Source: Bigelowiella natans CCMP2755
Taxonomy: Eukaryota > Protista > Cercozoa
DNA: 58,567 bases
Assembly: GCA_000320545.1 (NCBI GenBank)
Contig: ADNK01003197.1
Location: 1 to 58,567, forward strand
Direction of reading: 5' to 3'
Shown here piece after piece: positions 3,108 to 58,050 of this stretch. The position numbers were made by a program, and so were the translations under genes. Each line of letters starts with the position of its first letter. Positions within the stretch are counted from its first letter, which is position 1. The notes beneath the pieces were generated by a model. That model did not search any database and was not told the origin of the DNA. It worked only from the letters and a program-made list of their open reading frames with translations.

Positions 3108-3588
3108 TGTGAAAGTGTTCTACAAGAGTAGCCTGGTTCTGCAACAGGTTGACCAGATCTGGGGGCAGCACGCGAAAGGCTCCCGCCCGATCCAAATGCA
3201 AAACGTGAGCGTTCGAGTGCTTCCGGGGAGGGTGGCAGAGTTCAGATATAAAAAAGTAAAATCGTTTACAAAGCGCAGGGGTAAATAATGATGCGACAGC
3301 ATTTAATGCCTTGTTACAATCGACTCCCAAGAATCGACAGATTGCCCTCCTTTTGCAACAGTCACCGGTTGTCGCACGACTGGAAAAAAGGGACCGATGC
3401 GTCGGCATGTCGCACCTCCCAAAAGAGGGTTCGGTTCGAATGAAAGTCAATTAGCTGGTGGCGATTCTGGCAGGTTCTTCGCTGCTGCTTGGTGGAACAT
3501 TCGAGAGCTTTCCTGCAGAAATCCTGGAAAGTTCGCTTCCTGTTGGACTCGTCGGCCAGCATCAAAATCCAAAGGCTAACGCCTCAAA

Positions 3589-5196
3589 ATGAGTCGGATA
3601 AAAGGCTGTAGGCCGGAGGTGGTTGATGGAGGAGGCCGTGTGTCAGTGCTATCGTGGAACATCCTAGCACCGCAGTATTGCTCCAAAAAGCAGTTTCCCA
3701 GGTCACCGGCAAAGTGCTTGGACTGGAAAGTTCGGATGGGAAGAATACTTGACACGATCGCGAGATATGACGCGGATATTGTATGCCTTCAAGAGATGGA
3801 GCTTGCGAGCTGGGACTCTGTCCTAAAAGATTTTGCTACAAAGCATGGATACTCTCTCGTTCACCAGAAGGACAAGGGCTCGAAGGCCGGGATAAAGTAC
3901 ATTGGCAATACAACAATGTTCAAGGCAGCTCAATTTACGATTGAGTACGAGATACATAGATCTCGGGTAATGGTGACAGCTCTAAGACAACAAAATGAAG
4001 AAAATGATGATAAGAAAGATCATGTGAAAAATGATAAGAGAATAGAAGACGAAGATATAAAGCATCACTCGTCAGAAAATGATGAAGGCGTTGTCTGGGT
4101 GATTGCGAACGCACATCTTGACGCAACAAAGCCGAACCATCGTTTAAACCAGATGAAATCCCTCTTTAAAAGAATAAAACCCGAAAACAAAAAATCAAAC
4201 CATCGGCTAATCTTGTGCGGGGATCTCAACGCCGGGCCTGACTCCGAGGTCGTATCCCTCCTCCAGAATGGTAGAGTCAAAGACAACAATGGTTCTGTGG
4301 TTGAATCTGGGTTCGAAGACAACTTGAAGAGTGCATATCGTGTGAGGTGGAACCGAGAACCAGCGTTCACAATAGCGGTGGGGGGATGGTCCGGGGTTTT
4401 AGACTGGATATGGTTTGATTCACGTTGTGCGGACTGCTGTCATGTGGTGCCAATATTCACTTCGGCGCACACTAGAAACCAAGTCTGTAAAAGGGGGCTA
4501 CCTTCTGACTTGATACCCTCTGATCACTGTCCCATAGCTGCAACCTTTCGAGCCGTGTCGGTGCGAGCTCGCAAAAGCTTACCAATGAGAGCTACACCTA
4601 AGAAAATGAACAGAAAGCAAAAGAAACGTCTCTTCCGGATGAAACGTAAGAAAGCAGCTGCCGCGAAGAAACATCACATGACAACATTGAGGAAGAGTTT
4701 TCACAAGCCCGAACCCATATGCAAAGCAAACAACGGTATCAAGAAATTTGGTTCTCCGTTCAAAATTCCTACGAGTCTTCCAAATCTTCGAAGAGCTAAA
4801 TCTGCTCCTCTTGCGACTAGTAGAGGTTGCAAATCGACCGTTGTTCCTTCACCACATCTGTATTTACGAAAAGACTGTGCCCATCATGGGGTCACATCAT
4901 TGCATGAAGTTTTTCTTCCTTTTGGGAGGCCACCTGAAGATGAAAGGACCGCCTTTGACTTCTCAAAGAATTCAATCAATAGTTGTCATCGGGGAGCCCG
5001 AAAAAGCAGACAAAATCAGAAGCTGTTAATGAAGTGTCTCGACAAAACACAATGTCACTTGACTTTCGCATCCTTAGCTTCCGTTCGCGTGCAGCAATGC
5101 AACCTAATTTGCTCTCTTCAAAGTACACATGCTTTCAGTCACTCGTTTTTGTCAAGTTTGTCACTGGCAGGTTGTGAACATGGCAGATCACGCTGA
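3589..5196 (+). CDS. Endonuclease/exonuclease/phosphatase (EEP) family, CCR4/nocturnin/PDE12/Angel-like, with a basic C-terminal tail
   Basis: 535-aa ORF with EEP motifs SWNILA, DIVCLQE, NAHL, LCGDLN, LDWIW and PSDHCPI. The end of the C-terminal tail is uncertain because it runs into the TpA-depleted zone. Confidence 0.9.
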   Translation: MSRIKGCRPEVVDGGGRVSVLSWNILAPQYCSKKQFPRSPAKCLDWKVRMGRILDTIARYDADIVCLQEMELASWDSVLKDFATKHGYSLVHQKDKGSKAGIKYIGNTTMFKAAQFTIEYEIHRSRVMVTALRQQNEENDDKKDHVKNDKRIEDEDIKHHSSENDEGVVWVIANAHLDATKPNHRLNQMKSLFKRIKPENKKSNHRLILCGDLNAGPDSEVVSLLQNGRVKDNNGSVVESGFEDNLKSAYRVRWNREPAFTIAVGGWSGVLDWIWFDSRCADCCHVVPIFTSAHTRNQVCKRGLPSDLIPSDHCPIAATFRAVSVRARKSLPMRATPKKMNRKQKKRLFRMKRKKAAAAKKHHMTTLRKSFHKPEPICKANNGIKKFGSPFKIPTSLPNLRRAKSAPLATSRGCKSTVVPSPHLYLRKDCAHHGVTSLHEVFLPFGRPPEDERTAFDFSKNSINSCHRGARKSRQNQKLLMKCLDKTQCHLTFASLASVRVQQCNLICSLQSTHAFSHSFLSSLSLAGCEHGRSR

Positions 5197-6800: not shown

Positions 6801-6941
6801 TCTGTCCCCTCACCTCCCCCCCTCCCTCTAGTATCGATGTAAATTTAAAAGTACTCGTGAGGCACACATATGCAGTAAAAGTAAGCAGAGAACGAATATC
6901 ACTGAGTCGTCTCAACATCAAATTCCGCTCACTGTCAAATT

Positions 6942-7478
6942 ATGTTTTCCCTGTTATTACTACTCACTGCTTCTGCGGCTAATTCGAAGGGTGCTGCAGT
7001 GACAGAGGCAGACGTCCTTGAATGTCAAGACAAATGGGCCACCGCAATCAAGACCATTAGCAAGACTTACCTGGAAAAGGGAGACTTTGTCGGTGCCGCC
7101 GGCGCCGCAGCAGGGGAGCTCTACGGCTATGGTCACACCAACGTTCTCTTTAAGCCGACTAAGGCAGCAGAGTATCCCTTCCGCCCCACCGGGGGGGAGG
7201 CTATGTCGTACTTCGTCGGTGGAAGCAACGTCGATGGCGGCTACGAAGAAGATGGCGGGTTCGCCATTAACGGGGGCAATGGGTGGAAGGAGGTTGTCTT
7301 TACCAACCACCAGATTGACCTGAGCGGTCCTGTCGCCATCGCTATGGGATCTTACGTGTTTACTTGTGCCACCACCGGTGACGAGGCCAAGGTTGAGTAC
7401 ACCTTCGGTTACAAGCGTAACGACGACGGCAAGGTGCGCATCTTCCTCCACCACTCGTCGGTGCCGTATTCGCAATAA
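6942..7478 (+). CDS. Iota-class carbonic anhydrase (COG4875/LCIP63-like, NTF2/SnoaL fold), single domain with signal peptide
   Basis: Intronless 178-aa ORF with hydrophobic N-terminus MFSLLLLLTASAA. It carries LFKPTKA, SYFVG, G-Y-F, VEYTFGY and the diagnostic C-terminal IFLHHSSVPY. Confidence 0.9.
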   Translation: MFSLLLLLTASAANSKGAAVTEADVLECQDKWATAIKTISKTYLEKGDFVGAAGAAAGELYGYGHTNVLFKPTKAAEYPFRPTGGEAMSYFVGGSNVDGGYEEDGGFAINGGNGWKEVVFTNHQIDLSGPVAIAMGSYVFTCATTGDEAKVEYTFGYKRNDDGKVRIFLHHSSVPYSQ

Positions 7479-14384: not shown

Positions 14385-15039
14385 GACTAATATAGATGCG
14401 TGCTGCGATCAATGGGTTATTCCGCGCACGCAAGTACGGAACCCAGCAGGAAACCCTGCCTTGAACTCGTTCGCAAAAGAAAAATTAGGGGGGGGTGGGT
14501 CAGGCAAGAAGTGAGATCTCTGCTGCGATTATTTCCGGTTATAAAACCTGTCCTTTTCTCCCGAAATAGATTTATTTTCATGTCGCAAGTACTGAATCGA
14601 CGTCGTTACCTCTCCAGCGAACGAACACAGAAGAGATGCAACAACGTAGTGGCTGCCTACCAAGAGAAAATCCCCGCATAAAGTCCAAGATTTTCTGCCT
14701 TGCGACAACCTAAAGAACGGTTTCCAACGAGAGAAAGGACGGACTAAATTTCAGTCGTCCTTTGTTCCTTGGTGTTGATGGAGCTGTTTTCTTCCTGCGA
14801 CAAAGCATTCGAAGATGGCAGATCCATGCCATTTTTGTTGCCTCGATTTCCCATGTTAATACGAGTACTCTCGTACGAGTATGAGATGAGAAATTACGAT
14901 CAACGTTGCTGACGGAGGGTAAATACTACCGTTTTATGTTCAACGACGTACTAAAAATTATCACCTTACAACATAATCGCTGGTATTTTGCCCAAAGATC
15001 ATCATTTTTCCTGTCTGAACGGGTATCAAACAAACAAGC

Positions 15040-15958
15040 ATGTTGTCGGTACTCTCACTGTTGCTAGCCATGTCCTCCGCATCTCCCCTGCCCTGGCCCA
15101 AGCGCCCAGTGGTCGTCGAGTATTATTTCGGATCACAATGAGGTGCGTGTACGGAATTTGGAAAAAATGACTTTGCTAAGCTCTTCCAAGGTAATTTAAT
15201 AGCATACGCTGGTATCCGAAATTGGTTTTGAAAAGATGATTTGTGAATTCACAGCCTTCAAGTCCGATCCTGGCGTAAAATGGTCCCTCATGCCCGCTGT
15301 TCGCGACCCTAATCAGCCGTGCATTGACGAATCAAACTGTGACTGGGAGATGGCAACTCTCTGTGCTTTCAATCAAACCCAGAGCGAAGGACAGGTCGAT
15401 CAGAATTAAGTTTTCCAGCTTCTCAAGAATTTTTGCGTGCGCTGATCTCAATATTCAACAATTAAGGCGAGTTTCCTAATTTGCATGGACGAGGAATCCT
15501 CAAGTACGAAGGATGCACTAGCAGCTTCTCAAAATTGTTGTTCTGACAGCAGCATAGACTATAGTGCCCTGAAACAGTGTTTTGCTGGAGAATCTGGTCA
15601 AGAACTGCTTGACGAGGCCAGTAAAATTTTCAACAAGAAATTACCAGGGTATAATGTCGCTTATGATGCCATGGGACGTTGAGTCAGCTTTACGTGACGT
15701 TCCATATTTTATCAAAATAGGCACGCCACGGTTCCGCACACATTTGTGAATGGACTCGACACCATTCCTCTTTATGATGAACTTAAGTCCAGGATCTGCG
15801 AGGCGGGGTCAAAGGTGTAGCAGCTCTCTTAGAACTATGCATGCATAATGTTATATGATAGAATCTATTCGAGATGCCTGAGTCTGTGTTCTTTATAGGC
15901 GTCTATATGTAACAATTTCAACAGCACTCTCCTCCCTACACCTTTTTGTGAGGTCTAA
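15040..15958 (+). CDS. GILT-like (gamma-interferon-inducible lysosomal thiol reductase-like) selenoprotein, 5 exons, Sec at codon 34
   Basis: Exons 15040-15190, 15255-15394, 15467-15648, 15721-15814 and 15899-15958 are all GT-AG and in phase. Signal peptide MLSVLSLLLAMSSA, then VVVEYYFGSQ-U(TGA 15139-15141)-GACTEF (UxxC). Later FLICMDE, LKQCFAGESGQELL, VPHTFVNG and ICEA resemble GILT. SECIS downstream. Confidence 0.85.
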
Positions 15959-16049
15959 ACATGTGCACCAAGTTGCCAATTTTCGGGCATATGCAATGAT
16001 AATGAGACCAGCAGAATGTTAGATCAATGGGTCATAATTGGGACATATT

Positions 16050-16128
16050 AATCATTGGCACAATGATTGATGCGAAATTGAAACCAGTCTGCTGGGCGTA
16101 GGCATCATGACACATCTTGGCAATGATT
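16050..16128 (+). promoter_or_regulatory. SECIS element (type II-like) in the 3' UTR
   Basis: Helix I AATCATTG (16050-57) pairs with CAATGATT (16121-28). Core ATGAT (16063-67) faces TGAC (16108-11). Helix II TGATGC (16068-73) pairs with GCATCA (16102-07). Unpaired AAA (16081-83) is followed by mini-stem CCAG-tctg-CTGG. Confidence 0.85.
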
Positions 16129-16399
16129 CTTTGTCTCATGTTTCCAATTGATCATCAGCATCAAATACTGATTCGGCCATCTTTGTAATTTCTATCGTGC
16201 AAGCACTTTGATAACAGTACTCATTAAGTCATTGGCAAAATGACACGCATTGCGCATGTATGTGCGTGTCTAGGTGTGTGCACGCTGCATAAATGAACAT
16301 CGTGGGTGGAACACAATGAAGATCACAGATTGAAAATATATCCGATGTACATCACGCATACAATCTAGCAATCATGCAAAGACGTCCAGGGCGTACGCA

Positions 16400-17490
16400 C
16401 GTGCGGAAGTGATCATTCTTGTCATTATTGCAATCTCTATATCCACGATCATCATCCTCTGATGAGCCTTCTCATCTAGTTCTGTGTGCGAGAATTCGGA
16501 CAAAGATGGAAAATTTTCTACTATTACGCACCTGCATGGTACATGCTTGTAAATTGTCAAGTGTTGCCGGCTTTTATGGTTTTGGGGATCAATTTCACTT
16601 TCAATTCAGTGCAATGTGCAACCCAACGATGGCCGGACGGACACTCTGCGAACGTTGGGAGCCACTTTTTCAGCAAAAGGACATTGATCCAATTTAAGAG
16701 CCAAAAAAGTCAAATTGGATGAATTTGTGCTTGCATGTGCTTGGTGATCATTGCATTTGTGCTTGTAATTGTTTGATGATCATTGTCCGCTCAGGGGGCA
16801 CGGTCTTCTAGTCTTGCTACCTTGTTGTGTTGTCCAGTCCACTGAAGCAGCTGTTGTGTGTGGCGACAAAGATTACCAAGCCGCAGCATCGTCGAAACTG
16901 TTGATACGAGTCTTCAGTCTCTCAGCTGTGGAACACTAAAAGTACTGCTGCGAGCATCACCAGCGTTTTTTGTGGAGATTGCAAGCCTTACTTCTTGATG
17001 TGGATGGGGTGAGCAAACCTTCTGGAATCGTATTTTGGGCCGAACCTTCTCTGTACAATCCAGCCGAATCTTGGGCAATTCATGCCGTTTTGCCCCAATT
17101 CGATCTAACCTTAGTTGTCGCCAGGAAAAAATAGAAACCACTAATTTGGAGGAGAAATCTCTTGGGCGACAACTCCCTACAAGCCCAATATCCAGCATGT
17201 GATCTCACTGAAAATTCTACAGCTAAAACATCATAGGATTTGTCCTTCAAATAGGTGCGACATGTTGTCGCAGAAGTTAAAACCAAGGTGACTTGAGAAT
17301 CAGTAACACTTCGCGGAGCTATTTTGATCTGAAATGATCACAGATCTGCACAACAGCTGGATACATCGAAAACAAGGGATTATTGCGGGGAGCTTGGCTG
17401 CACAATGGCACCGAACCCGGTCCTCTATTACGCTCTCCTTTTGTCCCCGATCACCCCTGGCCCCCTCCCAAATGATTTGCGTTCGCTGTT
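16400..17490 (-). CDS. Hypothetical multi-exon gene, possibly PX-domain-like
   Basis: Possible spliced peptides DVLAVEFS-IELGQNGMNCPRFGWIVQRR and MLRLGNLCRHTQQLLQW resemble the PX W-x-V-x-RR strand and final helix. Exon structure is ambiguous. Confidence 0.3.
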
Positions 17491-18502: not shown

Positions 18503-21500
18503 TCCCTCTCTCTCTCCCCCTCCCGCGCCCTCTCTCTCTGTTTGTATGTGCTTGTGTGTGTTTGTGAGGGGGGGAGAAAGAAAAAAAGAGTATGAATTAG
18601 TGTAAATAGATTTGCTCAGTGGTGTTTCTCCCAAAGGCTCTACGGAAAAAAGAAGGGTCAAAGCGTGATGACGATCATGATGACTTTTGTCTTTTTTTCA
18701 GATACAATATTTGGCCTCTTCCCCACAAATTCAAGCTGCCAAAGTAGCTCTAGGACTTCATCTAGGAATCTCCGTTCTCTACCTATTCACCACGGTGTGG
18801 AAGGAATAACATGCCATCAAAAACTACTTTAACACATTGAAACTAGCACACAACGACAGGACCGCCAAACGGGTGCCCGTGTGTAGCATGCCGATCCTGA
18901 ATATTATGCTGTTTCTCCTTACCATCCAGACAATCTTGCCACGGTGGTCCTTATGGTGGAAAGTAAGTCCGTGCAGCTGCTTAGGCGCCACACAACATCA
19001 TCATCACAGAAGTGCGGCCTCGTGAAATAAACAGCATTTTTTTGACTAACACTTCCGCCACCCAGGCCGCATTGTTCACCAAGCCAACAAACGACCTGAA
19101 AAAGGCGCATGCCGTGTGGGCAAACTCAAAGCAGGGGTATCCATCCAATCTACACTCCTTTGAGAAGAAGCATGACAGTGATGTATAGGAAAGGTGTGAG
19201 GTTGTAGCTTCAGCGTGCTGTGATAGAATGATTTATGCGTTTCAATGGTCGCCTTGCCGGTTCTCGCTCTCACGCCCGTTTGTCACAGAGAGGCTCAGCT
19301 GTGCATGCTTTCTAAATTCACTCCAATCTTCCAGGGTGAGTGGCCATTGGGGGTTGTCGTAGGGATAGCATCAGAAAATAGAGCTGTTCAAGGGCGAGCT
19401 TTCTTTTTATTTTTTATTTGTACGAAGCATGACGTGATGAGATTTTGCCATTACAATTTGAGGCCGCCGTTTTCACGCGACTTTCCTCCCATATTAGACG
19501 TTAGTTGCCGCCAAATTCATATTCGCTAGCGCCTCTCACACTGTGCACGTATTGACACAGGCGAATGGGACGTCTATGAGCGGGCCGGAGGTCGGATAGA
19601 AGAGCATCGATGGCCACATTTTCATGACCAACGATTGCTTGATAATAACAGATCTGCTGCGCGCCTTTACATGCTACTATTTGCTCTGCCATTGTATTTA
19701 CAGTGCATCCATGTGAGTGTGTGAGTGTGTGTATTTATGTGTTTGTGCGCCTACTGGGCGAATATGGAAATTCTTGTGCGTAGGAGCTGACGTGATGAAG
19801 ATGCTGCTGGCTGATACACATGAGAATGAACAAGGTAGTAGGAGGAGGAGGAGGAGGAGGGGGAGGAGGAGGAGTAGATGTCGCAGATACAAAGAATGGG
19901 GGTAGCTGCGTTGTACGCATATGCACCAGCAGCTAGCAGCTGTGAAAATCATCTGATGTGCTCTTTCTCTTATTTCCCTTTCGCACGCGCGACTTCTAAT
20001 CAGCCATCTTTCTACCACCCGCCCCGCAGCTCTCCGGAACAACGCCCTCGCAACATTTGGGAAAAACCTCCGCAAGATGATTCTGAGCGATCGTGCGCCG
20101 CACAGAAATACATCAGCTCCGCTCTTCCAGGGCGACGATAAAACCAATATGACAACTCAAGGAGGAGGGGAAGGAAACCTTGCACAAAAACAAACAGGAG
20201 AGCCATCCGGGGATAACGACGACGGCGCTGATTCTCATCGACAAGATAGCCCTTTGCTAATTGGTGCTGCTGCTGCTGCTGCTAGTGCCCCAGCGAGGAA
20301 GATACGCGACTTTAAAGACTTTACATTCTCACATCGAAAGTTCAGACTAGTGCAGGAGGTCGAGTCACCATCATCGGCAGCATCTTCATCATCTTCATCA
20401 TCAGCAGCAGCAGAAGGAGAGCCTTCACCCTTATCTTCGTCCTCCTCCTCCTCCTCCTCCTCATCGTCGCCATTGATTCAGCGGAAGAGAGAGAAGGAGG
20501 TGCTGCGAACACGCCTCTACCCAGTCGTGCCGAAGATCGGCTCTCTGCCCATTCGAAGCCTGCGCAGTTACCGAGGCCTGAATCGCCTCTCTGTGTCACG
20601 GCTGCAATTCGAGTTTGGGTTAAATATGGTCCAGCGCAAGCCAAGCAAGCACATTGTTTACATGTACCTCGAGAAGATCCTCACCCCCCTGGTGGTATGG
20701 CAGCTCTTTCGCACCTTCTTAACCTACACGGAAGGCTATAAGAAGAGGGCCTTGAACGGCCTGGCCAGCCTCCTCGGCTTCCAGGTCCTGGAGACGTTGG
20801 CGGAGAAGCTCAAGGAGCGCTCGGCTGCAGGGAACGAGGACGACCTGCTCGGGAAGCTGGCGGCCTCGATGGGCGGTGTGCTGCCAGGCGATGAGAGCTC
20901 GAAAGAGCACTACATTGACAAGGAGGACCGGCTGTACGTGTACCGCAACGACGTATGGGCGATTCTGCCCGCGGCGAAGCTCCTCCCCGGCGACATCATA
21001 TCGATCAAGAGCAGCGGCACGGTCGCCAGCAGGTCGCGCGTGGTCCCGGCCGATGTGTGCATTGTGCGGGGCGGCGTGGTGCTCGACGAGTCCCTCATCA
21101 CCGGAGAATGGCTACCAAGCGTCAAAAAACGGCTAAGCCTTTACAGCAAACAGGCCAAAAAGACCCCGAAGGGCGATGCGCCTCGCAGCAGCGACAGCGG
21201 GGAGGCGGATCTGCTTCTTGACTGCGATAACAAACACAGAGGGAGCTACGCATCTGCTGGGACGACCGCTCTGAGCCATTGGCAGGGCGCCGAGAATGAA
21301 GGCCCCCCGGTTACAGCAACACCGGACGGAGGTGCTCTCGCCTTTGTACTGCGCACGGCACGAGACTCCACGCAAGGGCGGTTGGTTCGCATGATTGAGA
21401 CGAGGATCAGCAAGCCCCAAGACCAGCTAGCCAAAGACTCCGTGGCGCTGTTCTTCTCCCTCGCCGTCATGTCGATTTTCATGAGCGTCGGCCACCTACG

Positions 21501-23784
21501 ATCGTCGATCACTTCCGGGGCTTCAAGGACGAAGGTGGCCATGCAGGCCTTGCGAGTTTTCTCGCATGTTCTCCCGGAGGATTTGAGCGGAATCTCGGCA
21601 CAATCGGCGCTTATGTCCGTGGAGAATCTGCGGCAGAACGGAATCAGCACGGGGCAGGTCAACCGCATCCAAAGCGCCAGCCAGGTAGGCACTGTCCTCT
21701 TCGACAAAACAGGGACGCTGACCCAAGCTAGCCTGGAGTTCTATGGCTGTGTGGATTACAAAGAGCCGCTGCTGCAAACCTGGGACGCTGCTGCTGCCGC
21801 CGTTGAGACGGAGCAGCAGCACAGGGAGGAGCCAGATCTGGTACCGGGAAACATGCTAGAACCCGGCGTTTCGAAGTCGCGGATGGTCCTTGCAACCTGC
21901 CACCAGATCGTCCGCACGGAGAGCACAAACGAGCTCGTGGGAGACCCTTTGGAGCTCTCGGCTCTGTCGGGATTGGGTTGGAGCGTCAACGCGGCTGGCC
22001 TGTCCGTGAAGAAGGAGAATCCCGGGGAGGAGTGGTCGCGGACGCATCATGTCTTCAAATTCGAGGCGGAGAGGGCGATGAGCTCCGCCATTGTGGAGTA
22101 TGGCGCGTCCGTGGGACTCCCCGAGTGGTACGTGGTTGCGAAGGGGAGCCCGGAGGCCTTGAAGAAGATCATGGTGAATACACCGTCGTGGTACGATAGC
22201 AAATACGCGGAGCTCTCCCGCATGGGCTACCGCGTGTTAGCTTTAGCACGCAAGCGAATACCGAAGGACGAGGGCAAAGACCTTGCCAACAGGCTCGCGG
22301 AGGCTGAAGAGCGGGGAGAGGATGGCGGCGGCAGCACCCACAGTATCCGGGAGTCGCTAGACAAGAGTGGCCTCCGATTTGTGGGATTTGCCTGCTTCCA
22401 GGAGCCGCTGCATCGTTCCACGCGCAGCTCGATCGATAGGCTACGAGAGGCAGACATGCGCATGCACCTCATCACAGGCGATGGGTCCTTCAACGCGATC
22501 AAGATAGCGAGGGACTCCGGGCTCATACCGAGAGCTTACAACGTGGGCATTCTTGACTACGACCCAGACTCGAAGTCGGCTACGCTCAGGGACTTCGATA
22601 GCGACAAGCTGCTCAGCCCGAGCGTCAACTTAACAGACCCGATCTCATCCTCGATGGTGGCAATGGCGGCAACATCGACACGACCGACGGGTGGTTCGGA
22701 GGGGGGGGGCACGCTCTGCGTAACAGGGAGGGCGCTTGACGTGATCCATGACGCGCAGAATGAGAACCAGACTCGAGCGTTTTGGGAGCGGATTTCCGAG
22801 GACCGGGGGGCTGTCAGTGTGTTTGCCCGCATGAAGCCGATCCAGAAGCAAAGCGTCGTGCGCATGCTGAAGAAGGCGGGAGCGGCTGTGATGATGGTGG
22901 GCGATGGGGCGAACGATGCTGGGGCTCTCCGTGCTGCAGACGCAGGACTCGCTCTGCTGCCAAGCTCGTCATCTCCTAGCATGATAGAAGGAGGCCGGCC
23001 GCCCCCTGTTGCGGAGGCCAGCCAGGCAGCCTCCTTCGTCACACGCATAAGTGGCATTGGGGCGGTGCCTTTGCTAATCTCGGAGGCGCGTCGCTCCCGA
23101 GCTTACTTGGTGCAATCCCTCATCATAGAGGCGCTGTTCAGCGCGCTCGAGGGCTTCGACTTCGCGGCGATGTACACGCAGGACACGAAGCTAGACGAGA
23201 ACCAGGACTCGATACTCCAGTTCTTCTTCTGGCTGATGATGAAGGGCATGGGAGGCAAGAGCCGATTGCAGTCGCTCTTCAATGCGAGAAGAGCCATGGA
23301 CGATGATGGGATTCCGAACGCAAAACCGCCTTATTCCCTCTTCCAGCCGTCGTTGAGCGTATCTATGCTACTTCAGTTTGTACTGCACACTGCCGTCACC
23401 CGCCTGGCAATGATGACCGCGAGGGCTAGCTCAGGCGAAGACTACGACATCAAACAGGTAGTAGCCAGCACGATGCTGCTGCTCTTAGCGGTGCAAACTG
23501 GTTCCGTAGCGATCGCAAATTATGCGGGGAAGCCTTTCCTTCCGGCGATCTCCGAGAATAAGCCACTTCTCTTCGGATTCAGTGCTGTTGTCGGCCTTAC
23601 TCTCTTGGGAGCCCTCGGTTGGCCCGCGGTCGTAACCCGTCGTCTCCACCTTTCGCCGTTACCTCGCCGGTATAGGATGCTGCTCGCAGTGTTGCTCGCG
23701 TTGGACGCTAGCGGTGGCTTGCTGGCAACGAGGTTTGCGGAATGGTTTTACGATGCTGATCGCGCACTAGCGAGATTAGCGTGA
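17572..23784 (+). CDS. P5-type (P5A/Spf1/ATP13A1-like) P-type ATPase with several small 5' exons and one ~3.65 kb terminal exon
   Basis: Terminal exon from ~20131 has LLPGDII, VPAD, DESLITGE, FDKTGTLT (~21700), VGDPLE, AKGSPE, ITGD, FARMKP-QK and MVGDGANDAGAL. Upstream exons (~18700-19335: ILPRWSLWWK-AALFTKPTNDLKKAHAVWANSKQG) resemble the P5A N-terminal region. 5' start uncertain. Confidence 0.9.
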
Positions 23785-27924: not shown

Positions 27925-29085
27925 CGCAGTTAAGTTCTCGCTTAATCCGGGTCTTACTCTTTCTGATGCGCCTCCTTGGCGAACGGGAAGTAGTCGCAAA
28001 GCGCATTGACAACGGCCTCCTCCAGCTCCTTCCTCGGAACGTTTTTGGTCAGCATGACGGCGTGCTCGGTGACGTCGTGATCCTGCGAGGTCTGAAAATC
28101 TTCCACCTGACCTGGCGTGGGCAGAACATATCGACTCCTCTTTGCGTCCCAGATGATAAAAGGGGCAAGGATCACAGAGGCGATGCCCGCTTGCCGCATC
28201 GTTGGGGTCAGTGATGAGGAGGGCGGCAACGTCTCAATGGTGCTCAACTGCACCTCCACAGACTTGAAGAGGTGCCGAAGCATCGAGGCGATCTGGTCAG
28301 GAGAGATGTGCTGCAGGATTTGGCAAAATATCTCCCCGGTACTCTGGTAAGAATTACCGTCATCATTGGCCAATGCATGGTAGCGGTGAAACGATTGAGT
28401 GCGTGGAATGGTGAGACGACGGTGATGTGGAGATGAAAGAGAGCTGCCTACGACTACACTAGAACAACTACTTGCTGATATCAAAACTGAAACATCGACT
28501 GATGAAACTAGCAGAATCTGCCACCTGTATGGCCATGATGCCGTGTTTTGTGTCCACGTAATCAACGGGCGCTATCGAATGCGACGTCGCCAGGTTCATA
28601 CTCTCCGCTAACCGGTGTCTCTGAATCCTCGCCTGAGCCAAAGATATCGAGCGACATTAGTCTTATTGTTATCGGATATAGCAGTAGTGCGAGGAACAAC
28701 ATCATGATTAGAGCGACAGAAATGATGAGAAAGCAGCGGCTATTCCAGATGTGCATCTGCTGCCGGTGCCGCACTTGCCGCAGCGGCAAATAATCAATAA
28801 TACACGGACACGATATGAGAGATCTGCACACACCTGGCCGTCGCCGAAGCGATGCAATATGCGCCCCAAGCCTGTGATGATGTCTCCAGTGGTCAACGGC
28901 TCCTTCTCCTCAGCCTTCGCTCTTAGCTTCTTTTTTATCGTTTCAATCTCCCTCCGTAACGACGATGAAGTCCCAGATGGTTGCTTCAGGCGGTAATATG
29001 CGGCGTTTTTGGCCACGCAGGTGGAGAAGTCTTCGATGTCTTGCAGGGCCTGTTCCAAGCTGATGTACCTCCTCACGCTCGACAT
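24420..29085 (-). CDS. Peptidase S41-like protein with insertions including an EF-hand, about 11 exons
   Basis: N-terminal QALQDIEDF...NAAYY...LGRILHRFGDGQ; PDZ-like KGDIV...VVAIDN; ILDLR-GSSG; YYGKPVALLVDSETTNSGSTLASALR...NVFLVG...GGGAG. Spliced EF-hand loop DKDKDGRLSQQEF. Confidence 0.7.
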
Positions 29086-56989: not shown

Positions 56990-58050
56990 ATTTTTGCTGC
57001 ATGTGTGCGCTGCATGTAAGCACAGCTAGACACCGTTGTCGTGCATCGATCACTGCACACATCCCGTGCAAGCATAGCATGGCATGCTAGCATGAACGGT
57101 GAGAACGTGGTGACGCTACATGAACTGGTGACACTCAACACGCACGCACGCTAGCACGTAGTGCACGTCTAGCTAGCAGTGACGTCATTACATGCGCACA
57201 AGAACCCGAGCTGTGGTGCATTGCATGACAATTGACAATTCAAGCATCATCATCGTCATGAACGGCATGCAGACCATGCACGCATTCGCGCGACATGGCG
57301 AAGCTCGATGATGGACATGCAATGCAACAATGTCATATGTAGTGTTACTGTGTCCATGATACTGTCTCGTCGAGTCCCAATGATGACAACAAAAAATGAC
57401 TCAATGCGTGCCCGGTCATTGCCTAGATTGCCGGGCGGTGCGCGCGCGACGTGCGCGATCGACAGAAGATCATGGCTGTTCGCATGCAATCACAGCTAGC
57501 AGTGTGATCTTCCAGCAATAAAAAGAATGACGGACTGCACTTGTGCAAGTCAAACAAGATTTCTGATGTTGCCGCATAGCTGCACGTCACTGTGATCGCC
57601 GCTGCCTTGTGCGTGTGCGTCTGTCGACAGCGCGCCAGCAGTGACCTGCAGCGTCGCACGTTTCCAGCTCCACCTCCACGTGCAGTCGACCGCTTGCAAT
57701 GCACCAAACGTGTCCATTACTGCACAAACATCATGATGATCACTATCAAGCAAACACCGACCCACACCAAAAGCGTGAACATGACAAGCACAAGGTTTGA
57801 CGTCCAACAAAAACGCTGCGATGAATTGAGCATGACAACGTCACATCGATGTCGGGAAGAACAACGTGCAGCGATGTGGAATCAGACATGACCCACCCCT
57901 CTCCCCAGCTAACACGATTCGATGAATGAATGAAGTGATTCCAATGGTGTAGTTGAAAGGATCATCGGATGGGGTGTGTGCTTGCTCATCCGAAATCTGA
58001 ACGATTGCCACGTCCACAGCGTGCTTCCGAAAACGATGTCGCTCAGGCAA
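56990..58050. other. TpA-depleted, CATG/TGCA/CTAG-rich zone at a probable convergent junction
   Basis: Several 60-nt lines have 0-1 TA, many of the remaining TA lie in CTAG, and CpG is abundant. Confidence 0.75.

What the first reader, a model, noticed from the sequence alone, without database searches (positions are those of the whole stretch)
15040..15958. Hidden selenoprotein: GILT-like reductase with a UxxC active site
Seen: a five-exon gene in correct phase whose only interruption is TGA at codon 34. It sits where the first Cys of the GILT CxxC motif lies (YYFGSQ-U-GAC versus typical YYESLCPxC), after a signal peptide, with a SECIS about 90 nt past the stop. Established: UGA plus a 3' SECIS encodes selenocysteine, and Sec-containing GILT forms have been reported in some algae and invertebrates. 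The family is therefore not new, but standard ORF calling misses this gene (the track shows only a 65-aa fragment).
Basis: partly seen in the sequence, partly recalled or inferred. Interest (0 to 1): 0.78.

Follow-up and report, generated by a model that had tools for sequence, protein, structure and literature searches.

The report
Spliced algal selenoprotein, divergent GILT-like reductase
This marine alga's gene is spliced and transcribed with an apparent stop codon at its active site, which very likely encodes selenocysteine in a secreted enzyme predicted to break disulfide bonds; selenium forms of this enzyme class are already known, but this branch lacks the class's signature motif and databases mostly cut its proteins short.

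Summary
All four introns are seen in spliced contigs, and single contigs from two studies run from exon 1 through the unchanged TGA to past the SECIS-like hairpin. TGA stands at the same column in 34 of 35 related loci, none has Cys, and the 35th is a chance hit. A SECIS rule fires in 8 of 19 relatives' 3' regions against 3 of 600 shuffles; Rfam finds none. Sequence and predicted fold match mouse GILT best, with Sec on the first Cys of its CGAC. The GILT signature CQHG is absent (0 of 25), and the gene sits in a separate clade with a Cys sub-branch. Sec-GILT has been in print since 2008, and the host, Bigelowiella natans by database label, is a known selenoprotein user. I could not see whether the published sequences are this clade. 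Sec insertion, location and activity are inferred. This scan noted similar genes twice before in other genomes. A correct, modestly interesting re-annotation.

The parts
15040..15190 (+). Exon 1: start codon, predicted signal peptide (about residues 1-15), first strand and the U-G-A-C active site
   Evidence: covered by spliced contigs from 15010/15020; no ATG between 15010 and 15039
15139..15141 (+). In-frame TGA, codon 34, inferred selenocysteine
   Evidence: Unchanged in the contigs of X1, X2, X5 and X7 that cover it; TGA at this column in 34 of 35 related loci; aligns to the first Cys of mouse GILT CGAC
15191..15254 (+). Intron 1, 64 nt; database model P0002 starts inside it at 15236
   Evidence: Joint in X1, X2, X5, X7
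15255..15394 (+). Exon 2, with the C-x5-C-x2-E-x4-C motif that replaces the GILT signature
15395..15466 (+). Intron 2, 72 nt, AAG acceptor
   Evidence: Joint in X1, X2, X3, X5, X7
15467..15648 (+). Exon 3, helical insertion with FLxCMD motif
15649..15720 (+). Intron 3, 72 nt
   Evidence: Joint in X2, X3, X5, X7
15721..15814 (+). Exon 4, with the conserved VPH proline (Pro163) at the position of the thioredoxin-fold cis-proline (recalled role)
   Evidence: (invariant Pro)
15815..15898 (+). Intron 4, 84 nt
   Evidence: Joint in X1, X2, X3, X5, X7, X13
15899..15958 (+). Exon 5 coding part, ending in TAA
16050..16128 (+). SECIS-like hairpin in the 3' UTR: lower helix, core ATGAT (16063-16067) / TGAC (16108-16111), 6-bp helix II base, bulged upper helix, AAA at 16081-16083, apical 4-bp minihelix (type II form)
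   Evidence: inside contigs X2 record 5 and X7 record 8; not detected by Rfam
15959..16217 (+). 3' UTR as far as contigs reach (true end not shown)

Best explanation
This is a five-exon, spliced, transcribed gene whose UGA codon 34 is very likely read as selenocysteine, giving a predicted secreted GILT-like enzyme that likely reduces protein disulfide bonds in an acidic digestive compartment. Shown: exon structure, TGA in the spliced RNA contigs, conservation of TGA, similarity to GILT. Inferred, step by step: (1) the 3' UTR SECIS directs Sec insertion at UGA34 (about 0.95); (2) the signal peptide sends the 193-residue, acidic (pI 4.6), probably glycosylated protein into the secretory path, where eight conserved cysteines would form structural disulfides; (3) Sec34, at the start of the first helix of a thioredoxin/DsbA-type fold, would attack a substrate disulfide and Cys37 would release the product, as the CxxC pair does in GILT; (4) the likely site is the lysosome or food vacuole, where a selenol stays ionised at pH near 5 while a thiol largely does not (pKa values recalled), so ingested proteins would be unfolded for proteases (about 0.6).
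For: Splicing and the TGA in RNA contigs. TGA at the column in 34 of 35 loci, 0 Cys; the 33 loci grouped form 26 groups at under 90% local identity. SECIS rule: 8 of 19 relatives plus the window, 0 of 20 reverse complements, 3 of 600 shuffles; held-out intron-bearing loci 4 of 11 (two independent), 0 of 11, 6 of 330. Signal-like N-terminus in 22 of 26 relatives by a crude hydropathy rule. Family profile against the PDB: mouse GILT 6NWX, E 9e-10, positions 4-172 of 181. The window protein scores 64.8 bits against a profile of 13 CQHG-bearing domains; the best of 300 shuffles scores 7.0. Model of relative L003 (47% identical): pLDDT 93, best match 6NWX, TM 0.76; Z 17.9, rmsd 2.4, 169 aligned. 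B. natans is reported to have 23 selenoprotein genes (PMC7539508). A GILT orthogroup marks phagotrophic stramenopiles (IndVal 0.79; PMC8163842) and GILT is listed among phagotrophy-related functions in chrysophytes (10.64898/2026.10.27.762293).
Against: No direct evidence of Sec incorporation, location or activity. Rfam detects no SECIS in the window or in 16 relatives. 11 of 19 relatives had no hit under my rule, which I wrote after seeing the window's hairpin, so the window's own hit is not independent. The upper helix II is bulged, and folding z-scores run from -2.14 to +0.84 with the bounds chosen. The CQHG signature is absent. Pfam gives no GILT hit for single exons or the truncated models, and P0013 alone finds no GILT in the PDB. 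The fold margin over DsbA is small (Z 17.9 against 16.0). The model is of a relative, not of the window protein. The phagotrophy links in print concern canonical GILT, whose detection misses most of this clade. The runs with the spanning contigs are only guessed to be RNA (the splicing supports the guess), and the one raw-read run gave 10 reads, none establishing a joint.
Confidence: 0.68

Rival explanations
1. It is a selenoprotein, but works as a DsbA-like disulfide oxidase or isomerase, or as an antioxidant, in the secretory path or outside the cell, not as an acid-compartment reductase.
For: DsbA and BdbD are the next fold matches (Z 16.0, 15.2). 12 of 25 members also match Pfam Thioredoxin_4. 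The GILT signature is lost. A sister sub-branch (L033, L034, P0193 and relatives) carries a Pro-rich stalk and a Cys-rich tail, which would suit a surface or secreted role.
Against: GILT is the best match by profile (E 9e-10 against 0.0064 for BdbD), by Pfam (21 of 25 members) and by fold. The pattern of structural cysteines follows GILT. The C-terminus has no ER-retention motif (motif recalled).
Confidence: 0.26
2. UGA34 is a true stop: the gene is a pseudogene, or makes only a shortened protein from Met63 without an active site, as the database models have it.
For: Database models P0002 and P0011 start after the TGA; 114 of the 150 best representative hits begin inside the domain after the Sec column.
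Against: That truncation is what gene callers produce at a UGA. The sequence upstream of the TGA is conserved with signal peptide and YFGS motif across 26 groups. The codon is always TGA, never TAA or TAG. SECIS-like hairpins are enriched. The X7 variant differs at four places in exons 1-2 but not at the TGA.
Confidence: 0.03
3. UGA is read as Trp or Cys through a changed genetic code, not as Sec.
For: Four database proteins carry W at this column (P0013, P0029, P0068, P0181). Their DNA was not seen.
Against: TGA ends the reading frame at the normal C-terminus in relatives L001, L005 and L008. The W forms are most simply gene calls under table 4 (inference). TGA occurs only at the catalytic column in the 19 full-length relatives aligned. 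SECIS enrichment.
Confidence: 0.03

Closest known systems
Sec-containing GILT of marine eukaryotes (Zhang and Gladyshev 2008, PMC2398784; listed for Aureococcus in PMC5917014 and among the rarest algal selenoprotein families in PMC7539508)
   Same: Eukaryotic GILT homologue with an in-frame UGA and a 3' SECIS, from marine plankton (passages seen).
   Different: Whether the published sequences have CQHG or belong to this clade could not be seen: figures are not held and the supplement of PMC7539508 could not be read. Here the family is wide (34 loci, 26 or more groups), not three reads.
Canonical GILT / IFI30 (mouse, PDB 6NWX; Pfam PF03227; plant OSH1)
   Same: Same fold (TM 0.76; Z 17.9, rmsd 2.4, 169 aligned), the same x-G-A-C active-site letters as mouse CGAC, signal peptide, N-glycosylation sequons (90, 197), matching structural cysteines and VP motif.
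   Different: Sec in place of the first Cys; CQHG-x2-E-C-x2-N-x4-C replaced by C-x5-C-x2-E-x4-C; the first strand follows the signal peptide within about 8 residues, so there is no long N-terminal propeptide (propeptide recalled); about 18-20% structural identity; separate branch, support 100/99.
DsbA / BdbD thiol-disulfide oxidoreductases (PDB 3BCI, 3EU3)
   Same: Thioredoxin fold with a helical insertion, CxxC and proline loop.
   Different: Weaker match in every test; they lack the GILT-type cysteine pattern; bacterial oxidases.

Membership tests
Eukaryotic selenoprotein gene (UGA + 3' SECIS) | In-frame UGA kept in the spliced mRNA | tested here: met
   Contigs of X1, X2, X5, X7 cover the TGA unchanged and show the intron-1 joint
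Eukaryotic selenoprotein gene (UGA + 3' SECIS) | UGA aligns with Cys of homologues, with conservation on both sides | tested here: met
   Aligns with the first Cys of mouse GILT and with Cys in 24 of the 29 representative hits that cover the column; TGA in 34 of 35 loci
Eukaryotic selenoprotein gene (UGA + 3' SECIS) | SECIS with RUGA / AA / GA pattern in the 3' UTR | tested here: met
   Pattern at 16063-16111, inside the transcript; 8 of 19 relatives against 3 of 600 shuffles. Caveats: own rule, no SECISearch; Rfam gave no hit
Eukaryotic selenoprotein gene (UGA + 3' SECIS) | Host has the Sec machinery (tRNA-Sec, eEFSec, SBP2, SecS) | not testable with these tools
   No genome held. PMC7539508 reports 23 selenoprotein genes in B. 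natans
Eukaryotic selenoprotein gene (UGA + 3' SECIS) | Selenium in the protein | not testable with these tools
   Needs labelling or mass spectrometry
Canonical GILT (IFI30) | CxxC/S active site after the first strand | tested here: met
   U-G-A-C aligns with C-G-A-C; defining features as listed in PMC7017176
Canonical GILT (IFI30) | Signature CQHGx2ECx2Nx4C | tested here: not met
   CQHG in 0 of 25 aligned members; 24 of 25 have C-x5/6-C-x2-E-x4-C instead, as does the window protein
Canonical GILT (IFI30) | 10-11 conserved cysteines, signal peptide, N-glycosylation sites | tested here: met
   11 Cys plus Sec, 2 sequons, hydrophobic N-terminus; 8 Cys columns at least 90% conserved beyond the active site
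Canonical GILT (IFI30) | Pfam PF03227 above its cut-off (22.4 bits) | tested here: inconclusive
   Relative L003 scores 24 bits; 21 of 25 members match at E<=0.1, best 1e-9; window exons and truncated models give no hit; the whole window protein was not scanned against Pfam
Canonical GILT (IFI30) | Disulfide reduction at acidic pH in lysosomes | not testable with these tools
   Needs assay and localisation
Published Sec-GILT (Zhang and Gladyshev 2008; algal selenoproteomes) | Falls in the same clade as the published Sec-GILT sequences | not testable with these tools
   Sequences are in figures or an unreadable supplement; none of my homologue hits was named as such
DsbA-type oxidoreductase | Closer to DsbA than to GILT by profile and fold | tested here: not met
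   GILT ranks first, though the fold margin is under 2 Z units

The most novel reading that the evidence does not exclude
An undescribed, widespread marine-protist selenoprotein family: a GILT-fold clade without the CQHG signature, distinct from the published Sec-GILT, hidden because databases cut its members at the UGA. It used selenocysteine ancestrally, reverted to Cys in one sub-branch, and is a selenium-dependent step of prey digestion in phagotrophic and mixotrophic plankton.
Probability: 0.3. Interest if true: 0.62.

Novelty: new variant of a known kind. Interest (0 to 1): 0.4.

Why it matters
It corrects a gene that two database models have without its active site, and shows the same blind spot across a family: 114 of the 150 best hits begin after the Sec column. 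Sec-GILT has been predicted since 2008, and none of the passages I read reports an assay. A cultured alga with a full-length transcript makes it testable whether selenocysteine gives an advantage in acidic digestive compartments, and natural Sec and Cys forms in one clade give a ready comparison. Surveys that link GILT to phagotrophy would be missing most of this clade. It is not a new kind of system.

Tried and rejected
Rfam at gathering score over the window and at E<=10 over 15940-16260: no SECIS family. At E<=1 over 16 relatives: 4 unrelated weak hits. Pfam on single exons, P0002, P0003 and P0011: no GILT hit. P0013 alone against the PDB: no GILT. A second possible hairpin at 15975-16065 folds no better than shuffles (z -0.28) and fails the rule; rejected. 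The constrained fold had its 3' core placed two letters off and is not used. A relaxed hairpin scan gave ATGA...GA stems without the AA in L003, L026, L027 and L030, and nothing in L008, L016, L023, L024, L025 or L033; it is unspecific (2 reverse-complement hits) and not counted. L035 matched by one short motif and is rejected as chance. In L019 the TGA counted at 312 may be the start of an intron, with another TGA directly after the intron; either way the codon is TGA. No paralogue in the window. No alternative joint that removes the TGA in the 8 runs laid, of 24 listed; contigs show presence, not absence. X18 raw reads were too few to use, and X11's small share is not used as habitat evidence. 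No whole genome was held. The language-model atlas and the wide structural search gave no result, so both are untested. Two GILT reviews were not held. PMC12691970 (passages) describes a Cys-His-Asp triad for GILT; I did not rely on it. Searches for the host's feeding mode gave listings only; I read none of them.

Full report
Observation. The five exons 15040-15190, 15255-15394, 15467-15648, 15721-15814 and 15899-15958 join in phase to 208 codons and a TAA, with one internal stop, TGA at codon 34, in YYFGSQ-U-GAC. The introns are AT-richer than the exons (GC 0.33-0.39 against 0.42-0.53). I laid 8 of the 24 runs listed. All four joints appear, each in 4 to 6 runs, with exactly the modelled lengths and no other joint. 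Two contigs from different studies hold the whole gene: X2 record 5 (15020-16177, no other letters) and X7 record 8 (15010-16217, 8 other letters, none of the six listed in the TGA or hairpin core). Of X7's four coding differences, two are silent and two change residues 6 and 20. These runs are RNA by the tool's guess; the skipped introns and the empty flank upstream support it. The one raw-read run gave only 10 reads.

Host and annotation. Exon 3 is 100% identical to database protein P0002, labelled Bigelowiella natans. That model starts inside intron 1 and stops inside intron 4; the transcriptome model P0011 starts at Met63. Both lack the active site. PMC7539508 (abstract, section 5 and passages) reports 23 selenoprotein genes in this species and names GILT among the least widespread algal families. 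Its supplement could not be read, so this gene may already be listed there.

Is the UGA conserved? A scan with patterns from the C-terminal half, so not biased towards the TGA, returned 35 metagenome loci. In 27 the alignment crosses codon 34 and the codon is TGA, followed by xxC. Six more show the motif and TGA beside an intron, L014 shows it after a probable intron, and L035 is a chance hit. That is 34 of 35, none with Cys; the 33 that I grouped form 26 groups. Most read U-P-G-C; L033 and L034 read U-G-A-C like the window. A Met plus hydrophobic stretch precedes the motif in 22 of 26. In the protein databases the family is cut at this codon: of the 150 best representative hits (1602 in all at E<=0.001), 121 do not cover the column and 114 of those begin inside the domain after it; the 29 that cover it have C (24), W (2), S (2) or H (1). 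Of 61 further hits, 60 do not cover it and one has W.

SECIS. A hairpin with ATGAT at 16063, six perfect pairs, a bulged upper helix, AAA, a 4-bp minihelix and TGAC at 16108-16111 stands on a lower helix from 16050. My rule, written after seeing this hairpin, finds 6 sites in the window's 117 kb of both strands. It also fires in 8 of 19 relatives' 3' regions, 0 of 20 reverse complements and 3 of 600 shuffles, and in 4 of 11 held-out loci (two independent), 0 of 11 reverse complements and 6 of 330 shuffles. Against this: 11 of 19 relatives have no hit, Rfam finds no SECIS anywhere, and folding energy alone is only weakly unusual.

Family. P0002 finds mouse GILT in the PDB at E 0.0008. The profile of 25 members finds it at E 9e-10 over nearly the full length, with the Sec column on the first Cys of CGAC; BdbD follows at 0.0064. 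Pfam GILT matches 21 of 25 members but none of the window's single exons or truncated models. The window protein scores 64.8 bits against a profile built only from 13 CQHG-bearing domains, against 7.0 for the best of 300 shuffles. The AlphaFold model of relative L003 (pLDDT 93) matches 6NWX best (TM 0.76; Z 17.9, rmsd 2.4, 169 aligned, against 16.0 for DsbA). The GILT signature given in PMC7017176 (passages) is not met: CQHG in 0 of 25. In a tree of 53 domains (the window protein, 19 loci, and 33 domains picked from the proteins that cover the active site), 35 rows without the signature are split from the other 18 at 100/99 on a long stem. Inside, an 11-row branch of Cys-type forms (one has Ser; two lack the second Cys) is sister to the Sec forms L033 and L034 at 99/99. 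One is labelled as a dinoflagellate protein. This fits a Sec-to-Cys change within the clade, but the inner root is open, rows were chosen by similarity to the query, five of the 18 outer rows lack a literal CQHG, and the published Sec-GILT sequences are not in the tree.

Mechanism. Shown: gene structure, transcript, conserved TGA, GILT-like sequence. Inferred: SECIS-directed Sec insertion; entry into the secretory path; Sec34 as nucleophile and Cys37 as resolving residue, as described for the two cysteines of GILT; an acidic digestive site of action. The last step rests on analogy, on the low pKa of selenols (recalled), and on two papers that tie canonical GILT to phagotrophy in protists (PMC8163842, section 11; 10.64898/2026.10.27.762293, passage). 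PMC4053784 (passage) notes a GILT in Acanthamoeba. That chlorarachniophytes can feed by phagocytosis is recalled, not read here. The stretch between signal peptide and first strand looks too short for a plastid transit peptide (inference).

What is known. PMC2398784 (passages) introduced Sec-GILT as a eukaryotic selenoprotein family from three marine reads, one with a SECIS. PMC5917014 (passages) lists a GILT-superfamily selenoprotein in Aureococcus. Searches for GILT with selenoprotein, selenocysteine, selenoproteome or SECIS and for B. natans with selenoprotein found no paper on this gene, on a signature-less clade, or on an invertebrate Sec-GILT; the library lacks most subscription papers. 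Two earlier notes of this scan describe similar genes in other genomes. They are unchecked AI notes and a sequence look-up did not link them to this protein. One says no Cys form was found; I found a Cys sub-branch.

Verdict. A real selenoprotein gene (about 0.95) that works like GILT (about 0.65-0.7) and fails the canonical GILT signature test. It is a variant of a known kind; interest 0.4.

Noticed in passing
L033:37-1077, L034:43-921; P0193-P0225: A Sec sub-branch with U-G-A-C carries a Pro-rich stalk and a Cys-rich C-terminal domain; many database members are cut at the UGA.
   Followed up: partly
P0046, P0052-P0054, P0064, P0069, P0101, P0111, P0114, P0127, P0134: Cys-type branch of the same signature-less clade, sister to Sec forms; one member is labelled as from a dinoflagellate.
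   Followed up: partly
L026, about 62 nt after the stop at 1904: SECIS-like stem with CCC where AA is usual; L003, L027 and L030 also have ATGA...GA stems without the AA.
   Followed up: no
window 28211-28263 (+), 57120-57183 (+), 58421-58354 (-), 48211-48149 (-), 37531-37469 (-): Five other hits of my SECIS rule; probably chance, not checked for upstream UGA genes.
   Followed up: no
window 6906-7475 (+): 190-codon frame with a signal-like start and no Pfam hit; from memory it resembles iota-type carbonic anhydrase repeats, untested.
   Followed up: no
window 3580-5193 (+) and 19957-23781 (+): An exonuclease/endonuclease/phosphatase-family gene and a P-type ATPase gene; no evident link to the finding.
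   Followed up: no
window 16347-16500 and 14500-14529: Separate contigs mark neighbouring transcripts on both sides of the gene.
   Followed up: no
window 15965, 16008, 16046: Runs X5 and X7 have a 2-letter insertion after 15965; X7 has further differences in the 3' UTR outside the hairpin core.
   Followed up: no
window 15302-15516: A seawater metatranscriptome contig (X11) crosses intron 2 unspliced: DNA or unprocessed RNA.
   Followed up: no
P0022, P0085, P0141: Proteins with three or four tandem GILT domains.
   Followed up: no
L005:32-1567: The GILT-like frame is continuous with a long upstream repeat-protein frame, probably a chimeric assembly.
   Followed up: no
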